Positions 2,376-59,329 of a DNA stretch of 64,000 nt are shown here, piece by piece. Below the pieces are notes generated by a model. The model searched no databases. It saw only the letters and a program-made list of their open reading frames with translations, and was not told the origin of the DNA. Each line of letters begins with the position of its first letter. The first letter of the stretch is position 1. A program made the translations under genes and the position numbers. Source of the DNA: a phage. The DNA is taken from NCBI GenBank assembly GCA_011939005.1, contig GCA_011939005.1_4858.1; one strand, 5' to 3'.

Positions 2376-2969
2376 TTACGCTTCGGCCTCAAAGAACGGC
2401 TGGTTCGGTACCACTGCATATTCGAGCACGAAAAGATGTTCTGGGGCATCTTCTGCTCGCCACAGTTTGTGACACGTTGCCAGTTTTTCCAGGATGGTCA
2501 ACCAGCTGAGCTGGCAGAAAGCACGGTCGCCGAAGAACAGTTTCTGCAGTGCAATCGACACATCCATATACGCCTGTTTGAAGTCGAGTTCTTTATCGTA
2601 ACCCGCCGACTGTCGCCACGTCAGCACGAAACCTGCTTCGGTTTCGTTAATTGCTGGACGTAAACCACAAATCCACATCAGCGCCAGATTAACGTTCCAG
2701 TCGAATTCGATACCTTCGTCTTCGTCATCACCAAACGCCGCGTTTAACGCATCGTAGAAACCGTGGTTCTCTGCGAACCATTCGCCATACTCAACGTATA
2801 CCGGTGCTTCGACAGCTTCCCCATCGACTTCACCGATAGGACGCTCTACATAGTTCGGGTTGGTTTGAACGTGTTCCGCACCCGCGCGAATTAATTCGTA
2901 GACATCTTTGGCGGTGATTTGTGCGGCTGTTTTAAGACCTGGATACCAGGGGCGTGTTACGAGTGTCAA
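2376..2969 (-). CDS. hypothetical protein (197 aa)
   Basis: ORF with apparent TTG start overlapping stop of upstream gene; no motif recognised. Confidence 0.55.
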   Translation of the reverse strand: MTLVTRPWYPGLKTAAQITAKDVYELIRAGAEHVQTNPNYVERPIGEVDGEAVEAPVYVEYGEWFAENHGFYDALNAAFGDDEDEGIEFDWNVNLALMWICGLRPAINETEAGFVLTWRQSAGYDKELDFKQAYMDVSIALQKLFFGDRAFCQLSWLTILEKLATCHKLWRAEDAPEHLFVLEYAVVPNQPFFEAEA

Positions 2970-3688
2970 AGCAATGCTCCTTTCATGATAGTGTTATTTG
3001 CCAGTAGTGTACCGGCCGCAGGTGATATTTTGGTGTACAGCGTATCCCAGATTTTCTGAAGCTCAGCGACGCGTTGGTCGCGGTCTTCCTTCGCAAAAGC
3101 AAGCTGACGTGTTTCAGCTTTCGGTGGCGTCATTTTCGCACCGTAGAATGCTGCGTCTTTTCGGTAGCTGGCCATCCAGCGTTTCCCGACCGATGATTTC
3201 TTTTTAATCATCGCAACAGCAGCGCTCTCACCGAAGCGGTAGCCTAATGCGATTTCGGCTGTGCTCGGCTTGCGTTTGAGTTGTTTTGTCAGATGATCCT
3301 CGATGTGTTTCATGTAAACAGCAGCAAGCTGTACAGCATATTTCGGTTTATTAAGGTCTGCGTTCTTTGGGATGTTAAGTTGTTTCCCATACAGACGTAT
3401 CATGGAGCGTTTAGTGCCTGTCGTCATTTGGACAACACTACTAGCACTGCTCGATTTATTCTTACCCACGTTTTTATTAAAACGGGATTCGCGGTAAATG
3501 GTGGTCGCAAGCATCCCGGCATGTACACCTTGCTTTTGAGATGCAGAGACGATGAGAGGTTTAATCTCATTGAACTGGTCCTGGATAAGGACGAATTCTT
3601 TTTGGTGTTTGTTACTGGTGGTCTGGTAAGAAGCGTTGCTGTTGAATGTGGTCACTGCTACCAGAAGAAATAAAATGGTGCGAAACAT
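2966..3688 (-). CDS. secreted lytic transglycosylase (SLT domain) with N-terminal signal peptide
   Basis: ATG with GGAGA RBS; hydrophobic N-terminus MFRTILFLLVAVTTF; motif ESRFN...SSASSVVQMTTGT resembling the SLT catalytic-Glu region (ES..N...S.GA.GLMQ...T). Confidence 0.6.
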   Translation of the reverse strand: MFRTILFLLVAVTTFNSNASYQTTSNKHQKEFVLIQDQFNEIKPLIVSASQKQGVHAGMLATTIYRESRFNKNVGKNKSSSASSVVQMTTGTKRSMIRLYGKQLNIPKNADLNKPKYAVQLAAVYMKHIEDHLTKQLKRKPSTAEIALGYRFGESAAVAMIKKKSSVGKRWMASYRKDAAFYGAKMTPPKAETRQLAFAKEDRDQRVAELQKIWDTLYTKISPAAGTLLANNTIMKGALL

Positions 3689-12063: not shown

Positions 12064-12085
12064 AATAGCACCTCAATTTTTTGAG

Positions 12086-35584: not shown

Positions 35585-36472
35585 ATGAAAAACGATTTGC
35601 ATCTTGCGTATAAAACCACATTCAACCACCCGCTGCATCTATCTTCCCCAGATTCAGTGCGTGCACATCTCGCTGACAAAGTCAGACTGATTGCACAGAT
35701 TCCTGGTGAGTGGCCAAAGGTTCGTGGTCGCTTCTTGACCGACAAGAAGAACTACACCGTAGAAAATACGTTTAAGATCCGTGATATGGTTGCAGAGGCC
35801 ATCGTTATCTTTAACGGCGATGGTAACTCTCGCGGCGTGTTGGTTGACGGTAAGTATTTCTTCAGTGAAGGGATTCTGAACAACAGTGTCGATTTAGAAC
35901 TGATGTTTACACCGTTTGACGAACTTGAAGCAAAACCGATGGCGCGCCGTTGGTGGAGTCCGGACTATCTGGGCTCGTTCCCTTACTACTTTGTACTGGT
36001 ACCTGCCGATACGGAAACGTATTTCGACACCGAACCATACATCGATATCGAGGGGTATAAAGAACTCGGCATCACCCGTTTAGCGGACATGATGGCGTAT
36101 AGCTATAAGTTCGTGTGGGATAAAAAGCGTTCTGTCTGGTATGCGCTGACTGACGATTTTGAAATCACCAAGCGTATTCGTAAGCCGTGGATGCAACACC
36201 TGGTTCAAACTCGATATGGGGATTACCCGGCGACAGAAGCGGATTTGAGTAAGCTGGTAAGTTTCCTCTTAACGAAGGTGGATTTAACGAAAGAAGAAGC
36301 AGAAGCTGTTTCTGAGATTCGTGGTCGTTCGGTAACGTTGGCCGATTTGAAACGTCTGAACGAAAGACACGCCGACCTGAACAAAATTTTAGCTGCCTAT
36401 CACGACCCGATGTTACTGGTGCCTGGCGCTAACGTAGACGAAGATCCTTTATTCGCCATTGATTATATTTAA
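35585..36472 (+). CDS. hypothetical protein (295 aa) in radical-SAM cluster
   Basis: ATG with GGAG RBS; no recognisable motif. Confidence 0.65.
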   Translation: MKNDLHLAYKTTFNHPLHLSSPDSVRAHLADKVRLIAQIPGEWPKVRGRFLTDKKNYTVENTFKIRDMVAEAIVIFNGDGNSRGVLVDGKYFFSEGILNNSVDLELMFTPFDELEAKPMARRWWSPDYLGSFPYYFVLVPADTETYFDTEPYIDIEGYKELGITRLADMMAYSYKFVWDKKRSVWYALTDDFEITKRIRKPWMQHLVQTRYGDYPATEADLSKLVSFLLTKVDLTKEEAEAVSEIRGRSVTLADLKRLNERHADLNKILAAYHDPMLLVPGANVDEDPLFAIDYI

Positions 36473-36494
36473 AAATATACTGGAGCAACCTGCA

Positions 36495-37409
36495 ATGACA
36501 GATCAAGTAGAATCCAGGATCTCGTCTGAACTGTACGACAAACCGTCAATTCTGTCGGTTGTCGCAACTTCTAAGTGTAACTTAGACTGTAGCTTCTGTG
36601 GAGGGGCTTATTACATGGATAGAGAAGATACTTCTCGTGAGTTTCAACGTGAAGAGATTCTCTCGATTTTAGAGAAGAATCCGGATATCGGTGAGATTCA
36701 TTGGACGGGCGGTGAGCCGCTGTTAGCGCAGCGCAAGATTGAAGACTTCGTGAACGAGTTGAAGGAGTCTCATCCGAACCTCCGTCATCACATGTACACC
36801 AACGGTTTAAAGATGCGTAAATCACATCTGCCGTTGCTGAAACAGTTCGACCTTATCTTTGTGTCCATTGACGGCTACAAGAAGTCGGAACGTCCGTTTA
36901 TGAACTTTGTAAACGGTGGTAATCACGAAGCGCTGGAAGTGCTGTACGAGCTGGACAACTATTACACCTGGGGTGTGATGACGCGTGACCAGTTAGGTGA
37001 TAAACGCTGGTACGAAGATTTCATCGAGCTGCACCGAGCAATCTATCATTACCGTCCAGGTGGTATGTCGTTGCTGTTTGATGCGATGATGCCGAAACCG
37101 TTATCGCCAGACCACGTCATGAACTTCATGTACGGGTATTGGAAAATACTCGACAATATCGAACGCCTTAACATGCAGAACGATTCTGAATGTGGGCTTG
37201 CGATCAGTAAAATGTTCGATACCGAGTGCAACACGTGCAGTGAAGTGCTGTGGCTTAACGCCGACGGTACGCAGGAGCAAATTCAGAACGCCCCAGAGAT
37301 ATTGGAAGTCGGCTGTAATCGCCTGGCGCGTTCTATCGGCGTTGATGCGTATAACTACATCAACCGTGTAATTTCTGCTAAGCGTAAACGGGCGGCGAAC
37401 AATGAGTAA
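36495..37409 (+). CDS. radical SAM enzyme (305 aa)
   Basis: CNLDCSFC (CxxxCxxC) near N-terminus, GGEPLL and YTNGL motifs, additional C-terminal Cys (ECNTCSEV...GCN); ATG at 36495 with GGAG RBS. Confidence 0.8.
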   Translation: MTDQVESRISSELYDKPSILSVVATSKCNLDCSFCGGAYYMDREDTSREFQREEILSILEKNPDIGEIHWTGGEPLLAQRKIEDFVNELKESHPNLRHHMYTNGLKMRKSHLPLLKQFDLIFVSIDGYKKSERPFMNFVNGGNHEALEVLYELDNYYTWGVMTRDQLGDKRWYEDFIELHRAIYHYRPGGMSLLFDAMMPKPLSPDHVMNFMYGYWKILDNIERLNMQNDSECGLAISKMFDTECNTCSEVLWLNADGTQEQIQNAPEILEVGCNRLARSIGVDAYNYINRVISAKRKRAANNE

Positions 37410-38730
37410 TAGCGAACAGCAAATCCAGTACACACCACGCACGTATCAGGTTGTGACTAACCTGTCATGTAACCTGGACTGCGAATACTGCTACGAGCGT
37501 AAATATCCACGCAATAACAAAGTAGCTGACGTGATTGATTTTATCCACGCTTGCTTCGAGCGCGATAAAGATATCCCGAACGTTGAAGTCATCATCGATA
37601 TCATCGGTGGTGAGCCGTTCATGCAGCCTAAACTTCTTTTGGCGGCCTTTGAAACCGCAGAGAAGTTATGCGCAGAACACAATCGCCCGTATATGTTCAG
37701 TATCTCCACGAACGGTACACTTCTGGACCGTCCGCTGAACAAAGAAATTATCGAGCGCTGGAAAGACAAACTGTCTATTGGGGTCTCCATCGATGGTTTA
37801 CCTGAAGTCCATGACAAATATCGTATCTTTACCACGACGCGTGAAGGGTCGTACGAAGCTGCGGTACGTGGTTACAATTATCTGAAGAGTGTTGGCATCG
37901 CTGAACTGGGCGTAAAGGCGACGTTTACGATCGATACATTGCCGCACTATGCCGCCAGCATGAAATCGTTAATTGACATGTCCGGCGGTGGTACCATTTC
38001 TGGTAACGTAACGTACGAAGATATCCTACCGCGCCATATGGCGTTGGATATCGCGAACCAGATGATGGACGTGATGGACTACTGGATTGAGAAGGGTCTG
38101 CACACCAACCCGCGTAACACGATTACACACATCATCCCGGATGGCCTGAACTTTATGGCAACTTGGGACCCGGATTGGCGTGACAAACTCTTACATGACG
38201 ACTCTGTTCGTCTCGACCCAGAACGCCTGAAACCGTACTGCGGTACGTTGACGCACATGACCTGTCTCGGCTTTGATCGCAAGATTTACGGTTGTAACCG
38301 TTTCATGTCCACGGTAACTTCCCGTTCTGCTGTAGCAGAACTGGTCGGTCGTGAGTTTGTGAGCCTGGACGGTGGTAAGCTGTTAGAAGAGATTCAAACG
38401 CAGTACACCAACTACCCAGAAACCTGTTTAGGGTGTCCGATGAAACACAGTTGCGGTAGCTGCGCGGCAGCATCGTACGAAAACGGTGAAGGTACACTGG
38501 AAGACCGTAAAGCGTATCATGCCGAGCGTCGTCAGTGTGGTTGGACTACTGCGAAGCTGATGGCGGCAGAATATTGGTATCAGAAAACTGGTACGACCCG
38601 CGCATCAGATTTGCATGATAAATCCATGTGCTATTGTTCACGTTGTGTACGCCAACGTGCTGAAGCAGAAAAATTACAAAACGGAGCCCAGAATGAAGTC
38701 AATACTGATTCACAATTTTACGAAGCGTAA
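37402..38730 (+). CDS. radical SAM enzyme with SPASM-like C-terminal Cys cluster (442 aa)
   Basis: CNLDCEYC, GGEPF, STNGTLL motifs; C-terminal CLGCPMKHSCGSCAAASY and CYCSRC; overlaps previous gene by 8 nt. Confidence 0.85.
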   Translation: MSNSEQQIQYTPRTYQVVTNLSCNLDCEYCYERKYPRNNKVADVIDFIHACFERDKDIPNVEVIIDIIGGEPFMQPKLLLAAFETAEKLCAEHNRPYMFSISTNGTLLDRPLNKEIIERWKDKLSIGVSIDGLPEVHDKYRIFTTTREGSYEAAVRGYNYLKSVGIAELGVKATFTIDTLPHYAASMKSLIDMSGGGTISGNVTYEDILPRHMALDIANQMMDVMDYWIEKGLHTNPRNTITHIIPDGLNFMATWDPDWRDKLLHDDSVRLDPERLKPYCGTLTHMTCLGFDRKIYGCNRFMSTVTSRSAVAELVGREFVSLDGGKLLEEIQTQYTNYPETCLGCPMKHSCGSCAAASYENGEGTLEDRKAYHAERRQCGWTTAKLMAAEYWYQKTGTTRASDLHDKSMCYCSRCVRQRAEAEKLQNGAQNEVNTDSQFYEA

Positions 38731-40639: not shown

Positions 40640-41131
40640 ATGAAACGTCTATTTATCGTATTCGCGATTATAAACCTGTTGGTCGGTTGTGTTCAGTCGC
40701 CAAACAACATCGGGCAATTTAGCGCCACGCCAGTAAAGAATCACGACTTGGTGATTTATACATGCACAGGAACGCAGGAGAAGTTTGTAGACTACCGTCC
40801 GGTTCTGGACAACCTACAAATGATGCCGCGGTCAGTAACAGTATTGGATGTGGGTGCAAGCTGGGTAGCAACGTGGGACGGTGGCAAACTTGAGTCACCG
40901 ATGATGTTTAAAGATACAATTGGCAAAATCGACGGGAATGTTAACACCACCACAGGTGAGCGTTATTACCGTATTAATAAAACCGTAAACGATAGCCCCA
41001 CTTACTCTTTTTCGGATGTGAACCCGTATACCGGCGAAGGTAAAGGGATGACATTCTTTCGCTGCAGCAGCGGGTTTATCGGTGAAGTTCCTACCCCGAT
41101 TACGATTGTTCCGTTAGAAGAAAATAAATAA
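40640..41131 (+). CDS. putative lipoprotein (163 aa)
   Basis: AAGGAT RBS; N-terminus MKRLFIVFAIINLLVGCVQ with lipobox LVGC; divergent from the family gene at 39988..40515. Confidence 0.7.
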   Translation: MKRLFIVFAIINLLVGCVQSPNNIGQFSATPVKNHDLVIYTCTGTQEKFVDYRPVLDNLQMMPRSVTVLDVGASWVATWDGGKLESPMMFKDTIGKIDGNVNTTTGERYYRINKTVNDSPTYSFSDVNPYTGEGKGMTFFRCSSGFIGEVPTPITIVPLEENK

Positions 41132-41175
41132 TGCTTACCCACTCCCGTAAGGGGAGTGGGTAAGGGCTTTATTTA
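41121..41175. terminator. rho-independent terminator (bidirectional)
   Basis: Hairpin cttacccactccc-gtaa-ggggagtgggtaag with flanking A-run and T-run. Confidence 0.65.
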
Positions 41176-41256: not shown

Positions 41257-41772
41257 TTAGATTTTAACTAGCTTGCTCCAATCGATGGGTTGTTGCTTAA
41301 CCACTTTAACGGTACCACGTGTCGGTGACCAGAAGGTGATATCAGGCTGGTTGCGTACGTCAACATGCAGCCAGGTAATATCGCACTCGATAAAGTGAAT
41401 AAATGGAAACTCGTCAGGGTTCGCGGCAATATAATCGTGCACTTTCTGCAACGGAGTATCAAGCATTGTTGCATCAAACGCATTACCGAATTTATGCATA
41501 CTGCCTGATTCGGCGTACAGTTTGTTTGCACGAGTTTGCCAATCGCCACCCTTTGGTTTCTCTTGATTAATAAAGAACTGCAGGGTACGCAGACTACGCT
41601 GTTGCTGGGAACTGGTTAAAATCACCATCCGCCCAAAACGATTACGAATCTGTTGGAGCGAGATTAGCAGTAACGGATTAAGGAAACGAATAGCACCTTC
41701 ACCGTATTTCGCGATGTACTCCTGCGGCATCAACTCTTTTAACGCGAAGTTGGCAGGATTCGGATGAAACAT
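41257..41772 (-). CDS. peptidase M15-family zinc peptidase (putative L-Ala-D-Glu endopeptidase-type lysin)
   Basis: SMHKFGNAFD (S.H..G.A.D) and WLHVDV motifs; ATG with AAGGAGA RBS. Confidence 0.65.
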   Translation of the reverse strand: MFHPNPANFALKELMPQEYIAKYGEGAIRFLNPLLLISLQQIRNRFGRMVILTSSQQQRSLRTLQFFINQEKPKGGDWQTRANKLYAESGSMHKFGNAFDATMLDTPLQKVHDYIAANPDEFPFIHFIECDITWLHVDVRNQPDITFWSPTRGTVKVVKQQPIDWSKLVKI

Positions 41773-41781
41773 TTTCTCTCC

Positions 41782-42423
41782 TTAAGGGGTAGTCAGGAAC
41801 GCGCGTTTGATATTCAAATACTGCACGTTTACCGGTTGCCCATTAGTAATGTCAACACGTTCGTGTTCAGGAATCGCTAACGTACGCGATGTTCTAAAGA
41901 ACAGGTAGTTGCGATTATAGGACAACGTCTTTTCTACCGGCCGGCTATAAACCACCTTAGAGTTATCGTCTACATAGGACGGCCAACCAAACTCGTGAAC
42001 GGCATGGTAGAAGGACTTACGAATAAAGGTGTCAACGCCTAATGCCTCCATGATGCGTAAGAACATCAAGTCAGCGAACGTTTTGTCACATGCACGAGAT
42101 AGATTACCTTCAACGGTGTCAGGGTAAAAGCCTACCGATGAACGTTTCTGGTAAAACAAATCATGCACACAAGCGGCAGCGGCCCAAGGCCCATCCGGAT
42201 GCAGGATAGGACGTAACGTTTCTGGAATGCTTGCCAGGTCCGTCACAAATCCTCTCGGTACCGTTACCCATAACGGGGTATCCGGATGCACACCTGCTAA
42301 TGCTACCATCGCATCCATTCCGGTCTGTTCACGATAGAGGCTGCGCAACGTAAACTCGAAATGGAAATCATCCGTGAGGATAAACCACGGCTTCTCTAAC
42401 AACTTATACTTAAGTGCTTCCAT
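41782..42423 (-). CDS. hypothetical protein (213 aa) within lysis module
   Basis: ATG with GAGGTC RBS; GFVTDLASIP segment; function unknown. Confidence 0.6.
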   Translation of the reverse strand: MEALKYKLLEKPWFILTDDFHFEFTLRSLYREQTGMDAMVALAGVHPDTPLWVTVPRGFVTDLASIPETLRPILHPDGPWAAAACVHDLFYQKRSSVGFYPDTVEGNLSRACDKTFADLMFLRIMEALGVDTFIRKSFYHAVHEFGWPSYVDDNSKVVYSRPVEKTLSYNRNYLFFRTSRTLAIPEHERVDITNGQPVNVQYLNIKRAFLTTP

Positions 42424-42426
42424 ACT

Positions 42427-42522
42427 GACCTCATGTCATATAACGCACGAGCATCGTGAGGACCATTAATCCCAGTAAAATGGGCATTAAGCCTTTCGGC
42501 CAGTCGTCGTTGTCGTATTGCA
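42427..42522 (-). CDS. tiny membrane peptide (31 aa), possible lysis accessory
   Basis: Hand-translated MQYDNDDWPKGLMPILLGLMVLTMLVRYMT with GAGGG RBS; not in ORF track. Confidence 0.3.
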
Positions 42523-42639
42523 TGGCTTTACCCTCTGACAGAAGATCGTGCGTAATAGTTTGAAGAACCCAGAATCGTAATACGTTTCCGGAACAGTTTG
42601 TACTTCGGGGAACTTAGGCGGAGTTGGACGGTGGGTCAT
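42487..42639 (-). CDS. small ORF (50 aa) overlapping the 31-aa peptide gene
   Basis: ATG with strong AAGGAGA RBS; hand-translated MTHRPTPPKFPEVQTVPETYYDSGFFKLLRTIFCQRVKPCNTTTTTGRKA. Confidence 0.3.
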   Translation of the reverse strand: MTHRPTPPKFPEVQTVPETYYDSGFFKLLRTIFCQRVKPCNTTTTTGRKA

Positions 42640-42711
42640 TACGTTTTCTCCTTGCAGCAAAAACAAGGGCGCGCCAGATAGCTTTCATTAAGGCAGCAAA
42701 CCAATTCTGTT

Positions 42712-43329
42712 TCATTTACACATCCCCAACTTAGCCACGTAGTCTGGCATTTCCTGATAGACGCGGCCATACCAGCCGTAAGTAAACTCTTCGTTATCCT
42801 CACGCCCTTCACTGATTTCCGTGTAGTACGCTACCTGATGACAGGTTAAAGCGAATATCAGTCGATTTAGGCCCTCTTCCCCACGAGCTTTGATAAAGCC
42901 TTCTAACGCTGTTAACGTACGTGGTCCAATACCACCGTCGGCATCGATATCGTCGTACAGTTTACCCTGACGGTTTAATACGTTCAGAATGCGCTGCAGG
43001 GACTTGATACAGTTGCCACGACCTGCGTTGATGCCGAAATCAAACATCCGGTCAGCTAGCAGGACATTCATTTTCATAATCTGGTCTAAGCGCATCCGCT
43101 GCCACCAGAGCTTGTTGTAAATGTCTAACGCGGTTTCTAGGCTCAGGTCACGCATATCCCCTTTATAGCCATATTCACGCGCCGTGAGTTCGGTGACACC
43201 ACGGTTCGTTGCTTTACCCAAATCTTTCGGGTTATTAACGTAACCGGCTTCGATGTTTACTTTGGCACGAATAATGCCCTCTTTACTCCAACGATCGACC
43301 ACGATAACCTCCTGCGTTGATAGGGTCAT
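42712..43329 (-). CDS. GH108-like muramidase with PG_binding_3-like domain (endolysin candidate)
   Basis: IEAGYVNNPKDLGKATNRGVT resembles the GH108 EGGYVN.P.D.GG.T..GIT motif; DADGGIGPRTLTAL resembles a peptidoglycan-binding motif; ATG at 43329 preferred over track start 43365. Confidence 0.65.
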   Translation of the reverse strand: MTLSTQEVIVVDRWSKEGIIRAKVNIEAGYVNNPKDLGKATNRGVTELTAREYGYKGDMRDLSLETALDIYNKLWWQRMRLDQIMKMNVLLADRMFDFGINAGRGNCIKSLQRILNVLNRQGKLYDDIDADGGIGPRTLTALEGFIKARGEEGLNRLIFALTCHQVAYYTEISEGREDNEEFTYGWYGRVYQEMPDYVAKLGMCK

Positions 43330-43361
43330 AAAAAGAAAGCCTCTTCCCCGTGGGGAAGAGG
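43330..43361 (-). terminator. rho-independent terminator
   Basis: Hairpin cctcttcccc-gtg-gggaagagg with T-run on minus strand. Confidence 0.6.
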
Positions 43362-43416: not shown

Positions 43417-45585
43417 CTATTTCTTTGGCCGCACCCACGGTTTAGGGGCGGATTTGGTATACGGATTACATTCCATCATCTTACCGAGGTAGGCATCGTA
43501 ATACACGAAGCGATCGACATAGAACTTCTCCACCGGTGCACTACTGGTAGCCGATTTCACCCGGTTGCGTTCCACAGCGAGGCTAATCGCCCCGGTAGGT
43601 GCGGGTTTTAGCGTGAACATTACCGCGCGGTTGTAACGCCAAGTGTCGTGCACAATATCAAACTCCGATACACAGTGTGCCATGATACCAAACAATGTGG
43701 TGGCTGGTAAGTTGGCTACAGCATCGCCGTATGGTGTTCCCACCAAACCGCCGGGTATGTTTTGCTTTTTGAACAGCGTACCTGAAATAATCGTACCTAA
43801 GAACTCCACAACTACAGGCTTGGTTGGGTCGGTGACTTTATCTATCCCATCCGCACTGGCCAATCGGTTGGCATCTAAATCTGCGAGGTAGTCGAGGAAC
43901 TCTTGGTACTCGTCGGTAACATTCGGTTTCACCGTTCCGACGGATACCCAGTTGACGATACTTTTATTCCCACCGACAGCTTCGCCTGCCATCCCAGGGC
44001 GAGTCCATGACATCCCGTCTTCACGACCGTAGACATAGACTGGCGAGCCGGTAGCCGGGGTGTTCCATTGCTCGAACGCTGTATATCGTCCCGGCTGGCC
44101 CCAATCCCCACCCGGACCGCCATAGTAGCGACTCTGGTAGCCGGTAAATTGCGCGACGACTAACTGGGTAGCACCGCCTTTGTCACGGGACCCAGCTAAG
44201 CCGTTACGGTTATTGGTGCCGCTGGGCACCGCCGCGCCTGGCCCGAGAGGCGCACCACCAGCTCCACCGATCTTGGTGGTGCTAAACGCATAGTAGTCGC
44301 CCCCACCCCCACCACCGGCGATGGTGCCGTAGTTTTCGATGGTGACTTTGCCACGGAAGGTATCGCTAATGTGGATTGCGTCAGCTCCGTCCGCTGATGT
44401 GTTCGCAGGCATAGAGTAGACCACACCCGAACCACCACGACCAAGAATGGTTCCCCGGTTAACGAAGTTCCAAACCACCTCGCCAATTTGCGGCAATTCG
44501 TCGATAACGAACGTCGGTTTCAGGTTGCTGTCGCGATAAACGAAAGCCCCCGCATCTACGGTCACGTTAACAAACAAACGCCCGCACGCCGCATGGTTGG
44601 TCAACGTTGTGGCCCAGTAGCTGTCCGAAAGTTGCGACGTAGTTGTGTAGTTCAGGTTAAGGGTTTGCTCGTTATCTTGATAGCGTGCTACATTCAACGT
44701 GGCACTGCCCATGACTTTGTACGAACCCTCTACGGGTGCCAATTGCACTTGTCTCGGCCACTCGCCTGCCAGGTTCTCTACAGGAGCAATTTCGTTTACA
44801 TCAAAAACACTCCGAATGCCGAGTGTCTCGATGGCCAGAGCATCGTGCAGGCTACCGGTGAAATCATCCGGGACGTATGTGGTTTTGCCTGCATATGTCT
44901 CGAGTTTGTTACGTGAGAAGAACACATACTTCGTTCCAAACATCCCGCTCCCCGGTCTAGCGGTCAAAGCTACGACGCTGTTATACGCAGAGGTTTGGCC
45001 TATATCCTCCGGGGACATCGGGGCGCTGACATCGACTTTATCAAGATCCACGATCCGTTTGGTTGCATTAGAGTAGAAGTTAATCCACTGCTGCTTATTC
45101 GCAGCCTTTAGCGTGAAAATGATATTGGTAACAGTGTAGACAGTGTTGATATCCACGTCACCGTTTATCACATCTAGCGTTTGGCTGCCGTACCAGATAA
45201 GACTTGTCTGTTTCGCCTGGAACGTGATGCGCGCAGCATTGTTTGTCCAAGTGATGGGCAGGTCTTCAAAGTCGTCGGTTAAAAAGGTAATCCCTAGTAG
45301 AGTGTCTAAATGCGGCAACAGTTCGTGGATGGACGCACAAGTGGGAATGGCATCCAACTTAACCTTGGCGAAATAATCAGCAATATTTTGCTTCGTGACT
45401 TGGGCCGTAATTTGACCGTAACTAGAATACCCCGGACCCCCTGTCAGTGTGACGTCTAGGGTTTTTTCGTCACGATGCGCCACGGACACCAGGCGTACGT
45501 TAGCGGGGTCTACTGCTTTGGCGACCGCGTTTTTACGGTTGAGCGACCGAATCACGGTCGCCACTAAATCGGGAGTGTATGACAT
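43417..45585 (-). CDS. tail fibre-like protein with Gly-rich segment (722 aa)
   Basis: ATG with AAGGTG RBS; N-terminus resembles the family domain; GGGGGG and Gly-rich stretch; C-terminus SAPKPWVRPKK parallels SKTAPVPWYPAL of 45600..46919. Confidence 0.8.
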   Translation of the reverse strand: MSYTPDLVATVIRSLNRKNAVAKAVDPANVRLVSVAHRDEKTLDVTLTGGPGYSSYGQITAQVTKQNIADYFAKVKLDAIPTCASIHELLPHLDTLLGITFLTDDFEDLPITWTNNAARITFQAKQTSLIWYGSQTLDVINGDVDINTVYTVTNIIFTLKAANKQQWINFYSNATKRIVDLDKVDVSAPMSPEDIGQTSAYNSVVALTARPGSGMFGTKYVFFSRNKLETYAGKTTYVPDDFTGSLHDALAIETLGIRSVFDVNEIAPVENLAGEWPRQVQLAPVEGSYKVMGSATLNVARYQDNEQTLNLNYTTTSQLSDSYWATTLTNHAACGRLFVNVTVDAGAFVYRDSNLKPTFVIDELPQIGEVVWNFVNRGTILGRGGSGVVYSMPANTSADGADAIHISDTFRGKVTIENYGTIAGGGGGGDYYAFSTTKIGGAGGAPLGPGAAVPSGTNNRNGLAGSRDKGGATQLVVAQFTGYQSRYYGGPGGDWGQPGRYTAFEQWNTPATGSPVYVYGREDGMSWTRPGMAGEAVGGNKSIVNWVSVGTVKPNVTDEYQEFLDYLADLDANRLASADGIDKVTDPTKPVVVEFLGTIISGTLFKKQNIPGGLVGTPYGDAVANLPATTLFGIMAHCVSEFDIVHDTWRYNRAVMFTLKPAPTGAISLAVERNRVKSATSSAPVEKFYVDRFVYYDAYLGKMMECNPYTKSAPKPWVRPKK

Positions 45586-45599: not shown

Positions 45600-46919
45600 C
45601 TATAGCGCTGGATACCAAGGGACCGGGGCAGTTTTGCTATATGGACTGTAGACCATATAGCCGCCTTTGCTTGGGTCGTAATAGATGAAATAGTTACAGT
45701 AATTCGAGTAGAGGCTCGTCATTTGTTTGGATTGGTATCCGTTACGGTATAGTCCCTGGTAAGTAGTAGCTGATGTCGTGGTGGTGTAAGCAGTGTGGTA
45801 CAGTACCCGACGTCGGTTAGCAATACTTTCTTGGAACATCTCTTCGGTCGGAAACGCGTGTTGCATCAGCCGTCGAATACTCCCGGTACAGTATCGAGTG
45901 CCATACGGGGAACCCGTTAAATCATCCGCAGTTTCAGGCGATTCTGCCCGAGTCAACACGTACTCGTTTTGATACAACGTGACGCTCATCGAATTTGGGC
46001 TGGTTTCCCGGAAACTCATGTAACGCGCATAACGTTCGACGTCCTCTTCCTGCGCCAAATAGGCCACGTTATTTTTCGGACCAAAGTGCAAGAAGAACGG
46101 ACGGCGGAGATTACCCATATCCTCAGGTGGCGTCAACTTCACGCAGTAATTGTACTCCCCACGCATATCAGGGTCTAAGCCTGGGTTGTTATTGCGTGTA
46201 GCGACATACCCATAGAGGTCATACGGGTTATCAGTAGCAGCATTACCGATAGTGAACGGGATGCCCGACCATGCCGACAGCGCCGCGATGAACTGGGTCA
46301 TGTACGAGTTACTGTTTAGTCGCAGCGGGGTACCCATCTGGATATTGATTATCTGTTGGGTGTACATGCTCCAGTCGAGTCGATAGACCGTGCTGTAAAC
46401 ATCCATGGGTTCCCAAGCTCCGGTTTCGGTGGTGTGGTACAAGTCGGCAAAGCTGGGCTCTTCACGAATAAAGCTAATAGGAATGTGACCCGTGAATGCG
46501 GGGTTATCCGATTTAATCGCCACCGTCCGATCGCCCGTTGCCACAGTGATCATTGCAAACTGGCTGTCAGGATACGTTAAATCGTCAGCAGTAAGCACCA
46601 GCCCACAAGCTGCGGAAATCCGGTCGATGATGTCGCGGTAGACCGTCGCCCGATAAGGTACTTTAACCGGTACGCTGACGCCTTTAAAATACTGCGAAAG
46701 GTTTAAGCGGTCGTAGTAGATGTCCATCTTACCGCTGTAACCACCACCCTGTAATCCGTTTACCACGATACGGCTGTTGCGACCATCGCGCAAGGCATTG
46801 GTTAAAGGACCTTGTAATAACGCCACGTTGGTTGCGTTGAGCGGTTTCTTGAGCTGCGGGTTATCACGATTAATCTGATCCCAAACCAGTTGCATGACAG
46901 GTTTGTTATAGTTGATCAT
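45600..46919 (-). CDS. family paralog, C-type (439 aa)
   Basis: N-terminus MINYNKPVMQLVWDQINRDNP and VYYDRLNL motif shared with other members. Confidence 0.8.
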   Translation of the reverse strand: MINYNKPVMQLVWDQINRDNPQLKKPLNATNVALLQGPLTNALRDGRNSRIVVNGLQGGGYSGKMDIYYDRLNLSQYFKGVSVPVKVPYRATVYRDIIDRISAACGLVLTADDLTYPDSQFAMITVATGDRTVAIKSDNPAFTGHIPISFIREEPSFADLYHTTETGAWEPMDVYSTVYRLDWSMYTQQIINIQMGTPLRLNSNSYMTQFIAALSAWSGIPFTIGNAATDNPYDLYGYVATRNNNPGLDPDMRGEYNYCVKLTPPEDMGNLRRPFFLHFGPKNNVAYLAQEEDVERYARYMSFRETSPNSMSVTLYQNEYVLTRAESPETADDLTGSPYGTRYCTGSIRRLMQHAFPTEEMFQESIANRRRVLYHTAYTTTTSATTYQGLYRNGYQSKQMTSLYSNYCNYFIYYDPSKGGYMVYSPYSKTAPVPWYPAL

Positions 46920-46929
46920 TGCAACGTCC

Positions 46930-46965
46930 TAAAAAAGAAAATAGGCCCCGAAGGGCCTATTTTTA
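46930..46965 (-). terminator. rho-independent terminator
   Basis: Hairpin taggccc-cgaa-gggccta with T-run on minus strand. Confidence 0.55.
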
Positions 46966-47143
46966 GCTGTTATGGTGAAGTACGCTATCCCTTTAACTCC
47001 AGCTGCTTCGACGTCAGTTTGGATAACCACGCGGCCGTACGCTTTATTAGCGAAATTGAATCAGCGCTGATTCGACCTGCGAGTTCAGGGTTATCCCTTA
47101 CGACTTGTTGGCAGAGCAGTTCCAGTGCGCTATACAATCCCAT
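46966..47143 (-). pseudogene. decayed remnant of a family paralog (N-terminal about 30 codons joined out of frame to C-terminal about 28 codons)
   Basis: Intact RBS and ATG at 47143 encode MGLYSALELLCQQVVRDNPELAGRISADSI (compare MGLYTEPSMELLCQQIVRDNPGLAGKITADSI at 50555); region 46965-47070 is about 80 percent identical to 54051-54155 (3' end of 54050..54877) with a 1-nt deletion. Confidence 0.5.
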
Positions 47144-47154
47144 GAAGTCTCCTG

Positions 47155-48054
47155 TTAAGGCAGAACGAGTTCAAGTACCGCGATAGAACGTATTGTATTG
47201 GTTTCGTATCTACCGTACGACGGCGACTCTGGGTAGGGTGGACGGTTGTACCACTGATTGTAAATGTCAGACATAGCCGCAAAGAATGCAGATTGTTGGG
47301 CAGTAGTCGAATCGATTGAACCGACCGGAAGGTCGTCAAAGCGCGGCAACTGCCCACTGTAGTTGTACAGGCGCGCGAAAGTGTTAAACCACTCACCGTC
47401 GAGATACAACTCACTGTTACCGCTTCTAACGTTAGTCGTCCAGAATCTGTAGTCGAACAAATACGGCAAGCGCACCACGTATTCGTAACCGTTCTTCGCC
47501 ACCGTGCGGCGTTGGTTACGTGCAGTGGCCCAGCTCGGTACAAATCCATTGCCATCCTGGCCGTACATCAGCCCCTGGTTATAAATGAACTGCGGGCTAG
47601 CGTATATTATCGAGTTATCGGACATAAACAGAATACGGTTTTTGTAAATGAATTTATGCCAGGCACCAACGGCGGAACTGAACATATTCACCACGAGGCT
47701 GTTCAGTTCCGCGTTAGTGAATAACTCTGCTGGCGTTACTGTTCCAAAGTATCCAGCGTGCCAGTCGCCGTATAACAGCTTCTGGGGGCCAGGCCCGGTG
47801 TCTAAAAAGAACCCTTGGGCGGTAGGGGTGTTGAAGACACGCTCACCGTCTTTAACCGCAGCTATCCAATAACGGTAAGTGGTGTTGTTTTCCACAGCGT
47901 TGTCTTCGTACGATGTAGCGTCACCCGGAAGGGTTGCCAGAGGCGTTCCCGGTGCATTAACATCAATGGTGGCGTTGCCCGGCGTCTTGCGATAGATTTC
48001 AATGTTATCGAGCGCCTGTGGCTTCCGTTGTGCAAAGTTTAATGTAATAGGCAT
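47155..48054 (-). CDS. module protein B2 (299 aa), FN3-like N-terminus
   Basis: ATG at 48054 with GAGGAT RBS; paralog of 50569..51492 (IEIYRK...TYRYW, DTGPGPQ..GYFGTV). Confidence 0.75.
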   Translation of the reverse strand: MPITLNFAQRKPQALDNIEIYRKTPGNATIDVNAPGTPLATLPGDATSYEDNAVENNTTYRYWIAAVKDGERVFNTPTAQGFFLDTGPGPQKLLYGDWHAGYFGTVTPAELFTNAELNSLVVNMFSSAVGAWHKFIYKNRILFMSDNSIIYASPQFIYNQGLMYGQDGNGFVPSWATARNQRRTVAKNGYEYVVRLPYLFDYRFWTTNVRSGNSELYLDGEWFNTFARLYNYSGQLPRFDDLPVGSIDSTTAQQSAFFAAMSDIYNQWYNRPPYPESPSYGRYETNTIRSIAVLELVLP

Positions 48055-48056
48055 GA

Positions 48057-49046
48057 TTAATCCTCGATAAGCTCGATTACTGGAATCCAAATACCGCCCA
48101 CGGTCGCACCAGGGACATGTTGTATACGCTGGAGGTTATCCACGGTATCAGTGGAATCCGTCGTCGCTGTTCCGCGCGTCAGCCCCAACTTACGGTCTGG
48201 GTCAAACTCCTGACAATGCACCCCACGGCCACTCACCACCGATCCATTTCCGAATATGCTGATGTTCGACCGCGTTAACAGGGACATCACTTTTTTCTTT
48301 GCTGGGAACCAGGTACTTATCCCATAGATGAGTCGGTTGTATTCGCTATCGGCAGTATACGGTGACACGTCATGGATTTTTCCGTCCCACTGTGCATCGA
48401 GCGCCATGACCGGACTTTCACTGTCGTGTGTTAAACCGCGCAGCAATCGCATCCGATAGCGGTCACCCAACCACGTAAACTCCCCAGACTGGTCAACGTC
48501 AGGTAAATCACCATGACCGCCTTCCGGACCAGGTCCCGCCACACCGTACAGCAAACCCGCGTTATAAATCGCATCACGGCTATACAGCGTGTTGCCGTTC
48601 ACACGAAGACCACTAAGCAGATACAGAATTTTACCGTCTAGCTGGAACTTAAACAAGTACAGCTTAACAGTTGGGTCAATTCCAGAAAGGGCCACAAACC
48701 CTGGCGGATAATCACCCACGCTAGGCAATTCATCGTACGCCACATTCCCGTAATACGCAAAGCGGTCATCACCGTACTGTGGAGTCACGATGCCGATACC
48801 GCGACGGTTCTGAATCAGAATTGATTTCTGCGGACTGAACAGTGTCCGGCTTCCCACTGTCACGGTGGTCATGTAGTAATACGTTGTCCCCAGTATCGCT
48901 GTTCGGTCAGTATACTCAGTTTCCCCGTTAGTGAACGTTGCCAGAGGTTCAGGTAATGCCGTACGCACCAGAGGTTTGGTGTCGCGGTACAGCTTCACGG
49001 TCGAAGCCCCAGGGTTATTGTTCGTCCAACGAATTGTAAAAGCCAT
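48057..49046 (-). CDS. module protein A2 (329 aa), FN3-like N-terminus
   Basis: ATG with AGAGGTA RBS; paralog of 51502..52500. Confidence 0.8.
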   Translation of the reverse strand: MAFTIRWTNNNPGASTVKLYRDTKPLVRTALPEPLATFTNGETEYTDRTAILGTTYYYMTTVTVGSRTLFSPQKSILIQNRRGIGIVTPQYGDDRFAYYGNVAYDELPSVGDYPPGFVALSGIDPTVKLYLFKFQLDGKILYLLSGLRVNGNTLYSRDAIYNAGLLYGVAGPGPEGGHGDLPDVDQSGEFTWLGDRYRMRLLRGLTHDSESPVMALDAQWDGKIHDVSPYTADSEYNRLIYGISTWFPAKKKVMSLLTRSNISIFGNGSVVSGRGVHCQEFDPDRKLGLTRGTATTDSTDTVDNLQRIQHVPGATVGGIWIPVIELIED

Positions 49047-49058
49047 TGTCGTTACCTC

Positions 49059-50555: not shown

Positions 50556-50568
50556 GGCTTTTACTCCG

Positions 50569-51492: not shown

Positions 51493-51501
51493 GACTGCCC
51501 C

Positions 51502-52500: not shown

Positions 52501-52511
52501 AGATGATACCT

Positions 52512-54002: not shown

Positions 54003-54017
54003 AGGGACTCCGCATCG

Positions 54018-54046
54018 CCAAAAGAGGGGGCTCCGAAGAGCCCCTA
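54018..54046 (-). terminator. rho-independent terminator
   Basis: Hairpin ggggctc-cgaa-gagcccc followed by short T-run on minus strand. Confidence 0.5.
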
Positions 54047-54049
54047 CAC

Positions 54050-54877: not shown

Positions 54878-54880
54878 CAA

Positions 54881-55768: not shown

Positions 55769-55778
55769 TCGCTAATTC

Positions 55779-56618: not shown

Positions 56619-56634
56619 AATAGCCTCCTCGGCC

Positions 56635-56680
56635 AAAAAAGAAAGGAGTAGCCGGGAGGAGGATTTCCTCCTCCCAGCGA
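56635..56680 (-). terminator. rho-independent terminator inside the paralog array
   Basis: Hairpin gggaggagga-tt-tcctcctccc followed by T-run on minus strand. Confidence 0.55.
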
Positions 56681-56687
56681 GGCCTAA

Positions 56688-57599: not shown

Positions 57600-57620
57600 T
57601 CTTACTTCCTTTACTCAGGA

Positions 57621-58466: not shown

Positions 58467-58476
58467 GTCAAAATCC

Positions 58477-59319: not shown

Positions 59320-59329
59320 CTATACCCTC

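What the first reader, a model, noticed from the sequence alone, without database searches (positions are those of the whole stretch)
41257..43329. Lysis module with two different peptidoglycan hydrolases and overlapping tiny ORFs
An M15-type zinc peptidase and a GH108-like muramidase with a PG-binding motif flank a 213-aa unknown and two overlapping small ORFs (31-aa TM peptide and 50-aa product, each with strong RBS), and a separate secreted SLT enzyme lies at 2966..3688. Two or three lytic enzymes of different bond specificity is more than the usual single endolysin, and no classical holin was recognised. The small overlapping ORFs might be spanin- or holin-like components.
Basis: partly seen in the sequence, partly recalled or inferred. 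Interest (0 to 1): 0.45.

Follow-up and report, generated by a model that had tools for sequence, protein, structure and literature searches.

The report
Jumbo-phage lysis operon with a phospholipase
In this SPN3US-type giant Salmonella phage, six tightly packed genes between two terminators probably form the cell-bursting kit: two different cell-wall enzymes, three conserved micro-proteins of 30-50 residues, and a protein mislabelled "tail assembly chaperone" that is really a phospholipase-A2-like enzyme, the same muramidase-plus-phospholipase pair found in the typhoid toxin islet.

Summary
The window is an SPN3US-like Seoulvirus (97-98% identity). On the minus strand, hairpin terminators at 43361-43340 and 41164-41134 bracket six genes:
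- gp156 is a GH108 + PG_binding_3 muramidase related to TtsA and Sen1395.
- There are three tiny overlapping ORFs, not two: A (33 aa, cationic amphipathic), B (50 aa) and C (30 aa, one transmembrane segment).
- gp157, the "213-aa unknown", is a DUF1353 protein.
- gp158 is a divergent LAS/M15 zinc peptidase.

All three tiny ORFs are conserved as proteins in relatives of about 70% DNA identity, with a third-codon-position excess of substitutions.

Published virion proteomics does not list gp156 or gp157 and found only traces of gp158, so these are not entry enzymes. No Pfam or PHROG holin or spanin was recognised in the operon; the membrane proteins found elsewhere in the window matched only unknown-function families or none.

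Best reading (confidence about 0.55): a lysis operon in which micro-proteins and a lipolytic enzyme occupy the usual spanin position. This is inferred, not shown.

The parts
43340..43361 (-). Intrinsic-terminator hairpin (9-bp stem, then CTTTCTTTTT) between the gp155 stop codon and gp156. It marks the upstream edge of the operon.
   Evidence: Terminator scan. The fold is -27.5 kcal/mol, z=-2.0. An equivalent hairpin plus T-run lies upstream of the GH108 gene in all 9 clade members examined.
43326..43330 (-). TATGA motif directly after the terminator T-run. It may be the phage-RNA-polymerase promoter or transcription start of the operon (speculative). It contains the ATG that databases use as the gp156 start.
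   Evidence: A T-run followed by TATGA 25-35 nt before the start codon is conserved in 8 of 9 relatives. T-rich+TATG is not enriched in the window as a whole. The promoter reading rests on my recollection of the phiKZ late-promoter TATG motif and was not tested.
42712..43302 (-). gp156 homologue: a soluble GH108 N-acetylmuramidase with a C-terminal PG_binding_3 domain. It is the candidate endolysin. Likely start GTG 43302; databases annotate ATG 43329.
   Evidence: Pfam hits. PHROG 315 'endolysin'. Sen1395 (6v3z) E=9.4e-42 and 6v40 (deposited as 'PG_binding_3 domain-containing protein') E=9.5e-40, with the Glu of the EGGY motif aligned to the Glu of EAGY. No signal peptide or transmembrane segment. 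Absent from the SPN3US virion table.
42614..42715 (-). ORF-A, 33 aa: MKQNWFAALMKAIWRALVFAARRKRNDPPSNSA. A cationic (net +6) amphipathic helix. Its start overlaps the gp156 stop codon (ATGA).
   Evidence: Sequence. PHROG 25143, E=3.4e-12. Conserved in SPAsTU, phiEaH2, Asesino and L072-75, with a third-codon-position excess; hydrophobic moment 0.64-0.71.
42487..42639 (-). ORF-B, 50 aa. It has a proline-rich N-terminus and then the cationic amphipathic segment SGFFKLLRTIFCQRV. The last 11 residues are a Seoulvirus-specific read-on that overlaps ORF-C.
   Evidence: AGGAGA ribosome-binding site 7 nt upstream. Homologues of 27-31 aa in SPAsTU, phiEaH2 and Asesino. In SPAsTU its stop codon overlaps the ORF-C start as ATGA.
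42431..42523 (-). ORF-C, 30 aa: MQYDNDDWPKGLMPILLGLMVLTMLVRYMT. An acidic N-terminus followed by one transmembrane segment. It is the minimal holin-like candidate.
   Evidence: Kyte-Doolittle hydropathy 2.39 over 16 residues. Conserved in SPAsTU, 19 of 30 identical with 12 synonymous codon changes. Annotated in SPLA1a, phage 1252 and SPAsTU. Machinavirus and L070 carry one ORF that joins a B-like N-terminus to DDDPPP plus a transmembrane segment. No Pfam or PHROG match.
41782..42423 (-). gp157 homologue, 213 aa: a DUF1353/TtaP-family phospholipase-A2-like enzyme without a signal peptide. Databases label it 'tail assembly chaperone'.
41257..41772 (-). gp158 homologue, 171 aa: a divergent LAS-fold (M15-like) zinc peptidase without a signal peptide. 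It is the second peptidoglycan hydrolase; the bond it cleaves is unknown.
   Evidence: In CR5 and Phobos-type phages it directly follows DUF1353 and no GH108 gene is present at the locus.
41134..41164 (.). Bidirectional terminator hairpin (13-bp stem) between gp158 (minus strand) and gp159 (plus strand). It marks the downstream edge of the operon.
   Evidence: Terminator scan, both strands.
40640..41131 (+). gp159 homologue, 163 aa: a predicted lipoprotein (lipobox LLVG|C). It is a conserved neighbour of the operon across the clade, and whether it belongs to the module is uncertain.
   Evidence: Sequence. PHROG 9559, function unknown. Found next to the module in SPAsTU, phiEaH2, Asesino, ChrisDB, L070-72 and L077, but not found in the CR5 and Phobos-like loci.
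2966..3688 (-). gp198 homologue: a Sec-exported SLT lytic transglycosylase about 38 kb away. It is a separate, third murein enzyme and not part of the operon.
   Evidence: Pfam SLT, E=1.4e-6. PHROG 4067 'transglycosylase'. Signal peptide MFRTILFLLVAVTTFNSNA|S and the RESRF Glu-Ser motif. Not among the virion proteins in the passage read.

Best explanation
The region is a self-contained, terminator-bracketed operon that most likely serves host lysis at the end of infection.

**Shown**
- The operon encodes a signal-less GH108/PG_binding_3 muramidase (gp156), a signal-less LAS/M15-type zinc peptidase (gp158) and a signal-less DUF1353 protein (gp157).
- gp157 has the catalytic residues and the core fold of group XIII/XIV phospholipases A2.
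- The operon also encodes three translationally coupled micro-proteins that are under purifying selection.

**Inferred mechanism**
1. The three enzymes accumulate in the cytoplasm in an inactive state.
2. The micro-proteins act on membranes. C has one transmembrane segment; A and B are cationic amphipathic helices. C, possibly modulated by A and B, makes or triggers the inner-membrane lesion.
3. gp156 then cuts the glycan strands and gp158 cuts the peptide stems or cross-links.
4. gp157 hydrolyses phospholipids of the inner membrane and of the inner leaflet of the outer membrane. The cationic peptides may help. This destabilises the outer membrane, which is the step normally done by spanins. 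No spanin was recognised in the operon.
5. Latency of the phospholipase before lysis may come from calcium dependence. This is an inference from the secreted PLA2 family and was not tested.
For: **Operon structure**
- Hairpin terminators lie on both sides.
- Gene junctions overlap or are 7-10 nt apart, and each gene has a Shine-Dalgarno site.

**Enzyme identities**
- gp156.
- gp158.
- gp157: plus the experimental PLA2 activity of the DUF1353 protein TtaP (PMC11525133).

**Micro-ORFs**
- They are conserved, and substitutions concentrate at codon position 3.

**Not virion proteins**
- A related phage has its tail lysozyme fused to the tape-measure protein, encoded elsewhere in the genome (PMC7823757).

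**Synteny**
- GH108, then one or more tiny ORFs, then DUF1353 is kept across Seoulvirus, Erskinevirus, Machinavirus and uncultured jumbo phages. CR5 and Phobos types have DUF1353 followed by M15 instead.
- DUF1353 also sits inside lysis cassettes of unrelated small phages:
  - Fusobacterium phiRTG5: endolysin, 97-aa transmembrane protein, DUF1353, holin.
  - Caulobacter DMCA: M15 peptidase, 88-aa lipoprotein, DUF1353.
  - Pseudomonas phage Bjorn: lysozyme, DUF1353.
- In 37 de-replicated IMG/VR loci, holins and endolysins were the commonest recognisable neighbours of DUF1353.
- Small phages with a related GH108 enzyme have the order holin, GH108, 142-161-aa ORF. DUF1353 and the micro-ORFs therefore sit in the usual post-endolysin (spanin) position.

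**Typhoid toxin parallel**
- The islet pairs a TtsA muramidase with the TtaP phospholipase. TtsA-dependent release needs an outer-membrane-perturbing agent such as cationic peptides.

**Signal peptides**
- Several of the bacterial DUF1353 homologues in the alignment (e.g. P0088, P0093, P0096) carry signal peptides. This fits an extracytoplasmic site of action.
Against: - There is no functional data for any of the six genes in SPN3US-type phages. I could not retrieve the infection time-course proteome.
- ORF-C at 30 aa is much shorter than any characterised holin, and it is absent from Erskinevirus.
- The link between DUF1353 and lysis genes is recurrent but not universal. By my rough estimate about one third of non-jumbo viral loci show it. 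Of 20 further neighbour proteins from 15 loci, only 3 were endolysins.
- In CP81 and Va1 the neighbours are nucleotide-metabolism genes.
- Deleting TtaP gave no envelope phenotype in S. Typhi.
- A Sec-exported SLT (gp198) could be the principal endolysin.
- Only this 64-kb window was screened for holins and spanins, not the remaining roughly 176 kb of the genome.
- The Pfam score of gp158 itself is below the curated threshold.
Confidence: 0.55

Rival explanations
1. Only gp156 is a lysis gene. gp157 is a tail-fibre assembly chaperone, as the databases say, working with the neighbouring adhesin-like gp155. gp158 and the tiny ORFs have unrelated or no function.
For: - PHROG 1158 carries the label 'tail assembly chaperone'.
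- The operon lies beside genes with GP38-adhesin and DUF7941 domains.
- One IMG/VR DUF1353 neighbour resembled a tail-fibre protein.
- In Ralstonia phage RSL2, DUF1353 lies two genes downstream of a tail-fibre gene, after a hypothetical ORF.
Against: - A terminator separates gp155 from the operon.
- gp155 and gp160 are found in tailless particles, so they may not be tail fibres at all.
- The micro-ORFs show coding selection.
- DUF1353 is flanked by endolysin and holin genes in small phages.
- I found no experiment behind the chaperone label.
Confidence: 0.15
2. The Sec-exported SLT (gp198) is the true endolysin. The operon is accessory. It might widen the range of cell-wall chemistries that can be degraded, for example LD-cross-linked or stationary-phase murein, or it might remodel the envelope during infection rather than cause lysis.
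For: - gp198 has a signal peptide, an intact Glu-Ser catalytic motif and is not a virion protein.
- The phiKZ endolysin gp144 is also an SLT-type enzyme.
- M15 and GH108 vary in presence across the clade.
Against: - gp156 is closest to Sen1395, which degrades ordinary murein and stops growth when over-expressed.
- GH108 enzymes sit in classical holin-endolysin cassettes.
- The GH108-DUF1353 core is conserved across several genera.
Confidence: 0.15
3. The enzymes are virion-delivered entry factors that breach the wall and membrane during infection. In nucleus-forming jumbo phages, the phospholipase might instead act on the early lipid vesicle that encloses the injected genome.
For: - gp158 was detected at 2-3 spectra in some virion preparations and not in tailless particles.
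- Chimalliviridae enclose the injected DNA in a lipid vesicle (title and abstract of PMC10541120).
Against: - gp156 and gp157 are absent from the virion table.
- The authors judged gp158 to be non-specifically associated.
- A tape-measure-fused lysozyme serves entry in a relative.
- DUF1353 occurs in many small phages that have no phage nucleus.
Confidence: 0.07

Closest known systems
GH108 N-acetylmuramidases with a PG_binding_3 domain: coliphage N4 gp61 (founding member, from my own knowledge), Salmonella TtsA and Sen1395 (PDB 6v3z; 6v40 is a second close solved relative)
   Same: - gp156 has both Pfam domains in the same order.
- It aligns to Sen1395 over 170 residues at E=9e-42, including the catalytic-loop Glu.
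- It has no signal peptide.
   Different: - The motif reads EAGY rather than EGGY.
- It is encoded in a jumbo phage with no recognisable holin upstream and no spanin downstream. Small phages have the order holin, GH108, 142-161-aa ORF.
TtaP (STY1887), the DUF1353 phospholipase A2 of the typhoid toxin islet, and the group XIII/XIV secreted PLA2s (Tuber borchii 4AUP, Streptomyces 1LWB)
   Same: - It has no signal peptide.
- It is paired with a TtsA-type muramidase.
   Different: - gp157 is 213 aa against 125 aa. It has extra beta-rich N- and C-terminal extensions.
- It has an insertion of about 16 residues between the catalytic His and Asp.
- Its activity is untested.
- It lies in a phage operon rather than a toxin islet.
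LAS-fold / MEROPS M15 zinc peptidases: Streptomyces albus DD-peptidase 1LBU, phage endolysins Ply500, LysB4, T5 and RB49 L-alanoyl-D-glutamate peptidases, VanX/VanY
   Same: - An H-x6-D…H-x-D metal motif is invariant in the family.
   Different: - The sequence is very divergent. It is below the Pfam cut-off and gave no PDB hit by sequence.
- It has an N-terminal helical extension.
- The bond it cleaves is unknown.
Third-step lysis proteins: spanins, the phiKT gp28 'disruptin' (a cationic peptide) and mycobacteriophage LysB (a lipolytic enzyme). All three comparisons rest on my own knowledge of the phage-lysis literature.
   Same: - Position just downstream of the endolysin.
- A and B are short cationic amphipathic peptides, like a disruptin.
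- gp157 is a lipid esterase in a lysis cassette, like LysB.
   Different: - No sequence homology was tested or claimed.
- There is no lipobox and no coiled-coil periplasmic domain, so these are not spanins.
- LysB is a cutinase-like serine esterase that acts on mycolyl-arabinogalactan, not a His-Asp PLA2.

Membership tests
GH108 muramidase / PG_binding_3 (N4 gp61, TtsA family) | Glyco_hydro_108 catalytic domain above the Pfam gathering score | tested here: met
   66.9 bits against a cut-off of 21.2, E=2.3e-18.
GH108 muramidase / PG_binding_3 (N4 gp61, TtsA family) | C-terminal PG_binding_3 substrate-binding domain | tested here: met
   68.1 bits against a cut-off of 24.6. The alignment to Sen1395 runs through residues 18-187.
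GH108 muramidase / PG_binding_3 (N4 gp61, TtsA family) | Catalytic Glu of the E-G-G-Y loop | tested here: met
   The Glu of 'IEAGYVNNP' aligns with the Glu of 'KEGGYVNHP' in Sen1395. The first Gly is replaced by Ala. That this Glu is catalytic comes from my own knowledge and from PMC6996933 ('lysozyme-like catalytic triad').
GH108 muramidase / PG_binding_3 (N4 gp61, TtsA family) | Muramidase activity on murein | not testable with these tools
   Needs a zymogram or muropeptide analysis.
LAS / M15 zinc peptidase | Hedgehog/DD-peptidase (LAS) fold | tested here: met
   [not shown]
LAS / M15 zinc peptidase | Zinc ligands H-x(3-6)-D … H | tested here: met
   H93-x6-D100 and H136-x-D138 are invariant in 17 homologues.
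LAS / M15 zinc peptidase | Pfam Peptidase_M15 model above the gathering score | tested here: inconclusive
   This protein scores 16.7 bits, below 23.2. Eleven of 17 homologues match Peptidase_M15_3, best E=6.8e-8. PHROG 894 'endolysin' matches at 2.7e-26.
DUF1353 / TtaP phospholipase A2 | DUF1353 (PF07087) domain above the gathering score | tested here: met
   62.9 bits against a cut-off of 22.5.
DUF1353 / TtaP phospholipase A2 | Catalytic His with adjacent Asp, plus a distal catalytic Asp (TtaP H70, D71, D85) | tested here: met
   H87, D88 and D118 are invariant in 31 homologues. In the member without the insertion (P0102) the Asp lies 15 residues after the His, as in TtaP (TtaP residues). 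I had no TtaP sequence, so no direct alignment to TtaP was made.
DUF1353 / TtaP phospholipase A2 | Group XIII/XIV PLA2-like helical core | tested here: met
   [not shown]
DUF1353 / TtaP phospholipase A2 | sn-2 phospholipid hydrolysis | not testable with these tools
   Needs an enzyme assay with H87A and D118A controls.
Holins | Small membrane protein with at least one transmembrane segment, encoded in the lysis cassette | tested here: met
   ORF-C has one transmembrane segment, hydropathy 2.39.
Holins | Match to a described holin family | tested here: not met
   A, B and C have no holin hit in Pfam or PHROGs. The one match, ORF-A to PHROG 25143, is to a family of unknown function.
Holins | Timed lethal permeabilisation of the inner membrane | not testable with these tools
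   Needs expression experiments.
Two-component or unimolecular spanins | Outer-membrane lipoprotein with a lipobox Cys, and an inner-membrane-anchored periplasmic coiled-coil partner | tested here: not met
   A and C contain no Cys. B has Cys residues but no signal sequence. All three are 50 aa or shorter. The lipobox and signal-peptide ORFs at 11256-12965 are secreted paralogues, not coiled coils.
Disruptin-type cationic lysis peptide (phiKT gp28) | Short, highly cationic, amphipathic peptide encoded in a lysis cassette that lacks spanins | tested here: met
   ORF-A has net charge +6 and hydrophobic moment 0.64. ORF-B has net charge +5 and an amphipathic C-terminus. This shows resemblance in properties only.
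Disruptin-type cationic lysis peptide (phiKT gp28) | Sequence homology to gp28 and a demonstrated outer-membrane-disrupting role | not tested
The role needs experiments.
Tail (fibre) assembly chaperone, the database label of gp157 | Co-expression with, and requirement for, a tail-fibre gene; a non-enzymatic chaperone | tested here: not met
   A terminator lies between gp155 and the operon. gp157 has conserved catalytic residues and a PLA2 fold. It lies in an operon with two murein hydrolases.

The most novel reading that the evidence does not exclude
DUF1353 phospholipases A2 are a previously unrecognised class of phage lysis protein for Gram-negative hosts. In this reading they are lipolytic envelope disruptors that act after the endolysin, together with 30-50-residue micro-proteins that serve as a minimal holin or disruptin. 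They would do the job of spanins, much as LysB does in mycobacteriophages. This would explain how SPN3US-type jumbo phages lyse without an identifiable holin or spanin. It would also imply that the ttsA-ttaP pair of the typhoid toxin islet is a domesticated remnant of such a cassette, with TtaP as the missing outer-membrane step of toxin release.
Probability: 0.3. Interest if true: 0.8.

Novelty: new variant of a known kind. Interest (0 to 1): 0.55.

Why it matters
I found no description of how phiKZ- and SPN3US-type jumbo phages lyse their hosts beyond the endolysin. The 2026 jumbo-phage review I searched mentions neither holins nor spanins, and a relative's genome paper lists only wall enzymes.

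This operon gives a concrete, testable candidate set in a phage that already has an amber-mutant genetic system.

It also corrects an annotation that has spread widely: DUF1353 labelled as 'tail assembly chaperone' (PHROG 1158 and RefSeq).

Finally, it links a phage module to an open question in typhoid toxin biology. The biological role of the phospholipase TtaP, which sits beside the muramidase TtsA, is unknown (PMC11525133). A lysis-cassette origin suggests that role is outer-membrane permeabilisation.

If confirmed, a muramidase, a peptidase, a phospholipase and cationic peptides together would make an attractive enzybiotic combination against Gram-negative bacteria.

Tried and rejected
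- **PDB by sequence.** Searches with gp158 and gp157, as single sequences and as a profile, gave only chance hits. Fold searches were needed instead.
- **Bacterial DUF1353 loci.** The genome-contig scan used a narrow peptide pattern. It returned mainly chromosomal DUF1353 genes from environmental bacteria, mostly Proteobacteria, of which several (from the alignment) carry signal peptides, with uninformative neighbours, and no Salmonella islet. I therefore could not inspect the ttsA-ttaP locus directly and rely on the paper.
- **Reaching TtsA through gp156 homologues.** This gave classical holin-GH108 cassettes without DUF1353.
- **Spanin candidates.** The lipobox plus transmembrane gene pair at 12086-12965 is part of a family of secreted paralogues and was rejected.
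- **Programmed -1 frameshift joining ORF-B to ORF-C.** I saw no slippery site on reading the overlap, and in SPAsTU the B stop overlaps the C start as ATGA. I ran no formal frameshift search.
- **T-rich+TATG as a general promoter motif.** It is not enriched in the window: 3 sites observed against 9.7 expected. An earlier attempt with too strict a threshold returned nothing.
- **Infection time-course proteome (Weintraub 2019).** It is not held in the library.
- **First codon comparison for phiEaH2 and Asesino.** It used coordinates off by one and was redone.


Full report
**Identity of the window**

A 5.5-kb stretch around the finding is 97-98% identical to Salmonella jumbo phage SPN3US and about 30 other Seoulvirus genomes. 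The minus-strand genes correspond to SPN3US gp155 to gp158. gp159 and gp160 lie beyond them. RefSeq names gp156 'endolysin', gp157 'tail assembly chaperone' and gp158 'hypothetical protein'. A few PHROG-annotated records call gp158 'endolysin' and annotate a 30-aa ORF.

**Anatomy**

The minus strand reads as follows. A 9-bp GC-rich hairpin with a T-run (43361-43340) follows the gp155 stop codon. A 13-bp bidirectional hairpin (41164-41134) follows gp158. Six ORFs lie between them, each with a Shine-Dalgarno site:

| Gene | Coordinates | Size | Junction |
|---|---|---|---|
| gp156 | 43302-42712 (alt. start 43329) | 196 aa | follows the upstream terminator |
| ORF-A | 42715-42614 | 33 aa | start overlaps the gp156 stop (ATGA) |
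| ORF-B | 42639-42487 | 50 aa | overlaps ORF-A by 26 nt |
| ORF-C | 42523-42431 | 30 aa | overlaps ORF-B by 37 nt |
| gp157 | 42423-41782 | 213 aa | 7 nt after ORF-C |
| gp158 | 41772-41257 | 171 aa | 9 nt after gp157 |

The start of gp156 is probably GTG 43302 rather than the annotated ATG 43329. The GTG follows an AGGAGG site at 5 nt, and homologues in eight relatives begin two to five residues before the same R-W/F-S motif. The annotated ATG lies inside a TATGA that follows the terminator T-run. This hairpin, T-run, TATGA arrangement is conserved in 8 of 9 relatives. I note it as a possible promoter, but the motif is not enriched elsewhere in the window.

**The two murein hydrolases**

gp156 has Glyco_hydro_108 and PG_binding_3 domains well above the Pfam cut-offs. 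It aligns over 170 residues with the solved Salmonella muramidase Sen1395 (6v3z, E=9e-42), including the catalytic-loop Glu. A second solved relative, 6v40, matches at E=9.5e-40. Sen1395 degrades ordinary murein and stops growth when over-expressed. [quoted passage not shown]

gp158 alone is below the Pfam cut-off for Peptidase_M15_3. However:
- 11 of 17 homologues match that model.
- It matches PHROG 894 'endolysin' at 2.7e-26.
- H93-x6-D100 and H136-x-D138 are invariant.

gp158 is therefore a divergent LAS/M15-type peptidase. The bond it cleaves cannot be told. Neither protein has a signal peptide or a transmembrane segment.

**The '213-aa unknown'**

gp157 is a DUF1353 protein (E=2e-17). 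A 2024 study showed that TtaP, the 125-aa, essentially all-DUF1353 protein of the typhoid toxin islet, is a phospholipase A2. TtaP is distantly related to the group XIV secreted PLA2s and has catalytic H70/D71 and D85 (PMC11525133).

I found no experimental basis for the label 'tail assembly chaperone'. The terminator between gp155 and the operon argues against co-expression with the adhesin-like gene.

**The micro-ORFs**

Relatives at about 70% DNA identity keep the micro-ORFs in several arrangements:

| Lineage | Micro-ORFs between GH108 and DUF1353 |
|---|---|
| Seoulvirus (this window, SPN3US) | A + B + C |
| SPAsTU | A + B + C; the B stop overlaps the C start |
| Erskinevirus (phiEaH2, Asesino) | A + B |
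| Four uncultured jumbo phages (L072-75) | an A-like ORF only |
| Machinavirus and L070 | one 44-52-aa ORF: B-like N-terminus (PPxFPEVQ), DDDPPP, one transmembrane segment |
| Wellington-like phages | one 37-56-aa ORF with a single transmembrane segment |

In all 13 pairwise comparisons, substitutions are most frequent at codon position 3 and least frequent at position 2. About half of the changed codons are synonymous. These are therefore real genes.

Their properties are as follows:
- A has net charge +6 and a strongly amphipathic helix (hydrophobic moment 0.64-0.71).
- B ends in a cationic amphipathic segment.
- C has an acidic N-terminus and one transmembrane segment.
- None has a lipobox, and none matches a holin or spanin family.

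**Are the enzymes virion parts?**

The SPN3US virion proteome table lists gp154, gp155 and gp160 but not gp156, gp157 or gp159. gp158 gave 2-3 spectra in some preparations, and the authors judged it non-specific. In a related phage the tail lysozyme is fused to the tape-measure protein, encoded elsewhere in the genome.

**Comparative pattern**

Across the jumbo-phage clade DUF1353 is the constant element and the murein hydrolase varies:
- GH108 only: Erskinevirus, Machinavirus and Wellington-like phages.
- M15 only at this locus: CR5 and Phobos.
- Both: Seoulvirus, SPAsTU and L072.

Outside the clade, DUF1353 lies inside recognisable lysis cassettes in three unrelated phages:
- Fusobacterium phiRTG5: endolysin, 97-aa transmembrane protein, DUF1353, holin.
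- Caulobacter DMCA: M15 peptidase, 88-aa lipoprotein, DUF1353.
- Pseudomonas phage Bjorn: lysozyme, DUF1353.

Among 138 neighbours of DUF1353 in 37 de-replicated IMG/VR loci, holins and several endolysin families were the commonest recognisable functions. The link is not universal. Only 3 of 20 further neighbours examined were endolysins. In Campylobacter CP81 and Vibrio Va1 the neighbours are nucleotide-metabolism genes.

Small phages with GH108 enzymes related to gp156 show the classical order holin, GH108, 142-161-aa ORF. In the present operon the micro-ORFs and DUF1353 therefore sit in the usual post-endolysin position.

**Interpretation**

The identities of the parts are well supported. 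That they act together in lysis is an inference from four things: operon structure, synteny, absence from virions, and the parallel with the typhoid toxin islet. In that islet a TtsA muramidase and the TtaP phospholipase are kept together, and TtsA-dependent release needs an outer-membrane-perturbing agent such as a cationic peptide.

The proposed sequence is:
1. The micro-proteins permeabilise the inner membrane.
2. gp156 and gp158 degrade murein.
3. gp157, possibly with peptides A and B, breaks the outer membrane.

The weakest points are these:
- What makes the inner-membrane lesion.
- How a cytoplasmic phospholipase is held in check.
- What role the separate Sec-exported SLT plays (2966-3688).
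- The roughly 176 kb of the genome outside this window was not screened for holins or spanins.

**Novelty**

The phage and its genes are in the databases, and gp156 is already annotated as an endolysin. I found three things in no paper in the searchable library:
- the reading of gp157 as a PLA2-like lysis-cassette enzyme;
- the equivalence of the gp156/gp157 pair with ttsA/ttaP;
- the three conserved micro-genes.

I rate this a new variant of a known kind (a phage lysis cassette), of moderate to good interest.

Noticed in passing
window 43417-45585 and 45600-60127 (minus strand): gp155 combines a DUF7941 domain with a GP38 tail-fibre-adhesin domain. It heads a long run of DUF7941-type paralogues. 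Yet the published SPN3US mass-spectrometry table shows gp154, gp155 and gp160 also in tailless particles. Adhesin-like proteins that appear to be head-associated are odd.
   Followed up: partly
window 2058-3688 (minus strand): The Sec-exported SLT (2966-3688) overlaps by 4 nt a 197-aa ORF of unknown function (2376-2969, PHROG 8114). An 88-aa one-transmembrane ORF (2058-2324) with no family match follows. This may be a second envelope-directed module.
   Followed up: partly
window 11256-12965 (minus strand): Four adjacent paralogous small proteins have Sec signal peptides, an N-terminal anchor or a lipobox (127, 136, 178 and 133 aa; PHROGs 5248, 8968, 17072, 9424, all of unknown function). They are cysteine-rich and not spanin-like.
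   Followed up: partly
window 40640-41131 (plus strand): gp159 is a predicted lipoprotein (LLVG|C). It is conserved beside the lysis operon in most clade members examined (not found in the CR5 and Phobos-like loci), in varying orientation. Its function is unknown; it could act in superinfection exclusion or in the envelope.
   Followed up: partly
window 43326-43361 and equivalent sites in L005, L008, L068-L071, L077: A hairpin with a cttcgg-type loop, a T-run and TATGA lie 25-35 nt before the GH108 start in 8 of 9 relatives. This could be a terminator followed by a promoter. In this window the annotated ATG start of gp156 lies inside the motif.
   Followed up: partly
L008 (ChrisDB) 3962-4096 and L070 about 2854-3012: In Machinavirus-type phages one 44-52-aa ORF combines the N-terminal motif of ORF-B (PPxFPEVQ) with the acidic and transmembrane part of ORF-C. 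This is a gene fusion or fission between micro-genes.
   Followed up: partly
window 36459-38730 (plus strand); L001 2116-4231: Two adjacent genes just upstream of the module correspond to SPN3US genes that RefSeq annotates as radical-SAM-domain proteins. The pair is conserved in phiEaH2, Asesino, ChrisDB and CR5. I did not scan the window ORFs myself, and the function is unknown.
   Followed up: no
window 3788-4288 (minus strand): A macro-domain protein lies next to the SLT gene. Pfam Macro scores E=2e-4, just below the cut-off, and RefSeq annotates it as such.
   Followed up: no
database records, not the window: Several SPFM phage records match the region in 35-36 broken pieces and yield garbled proteins, so they are poor assemblies. 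Two homologues named 'Escherichia coli' (P0018, P0139) sit on a 240,822-bp contig.
   Followed up: no
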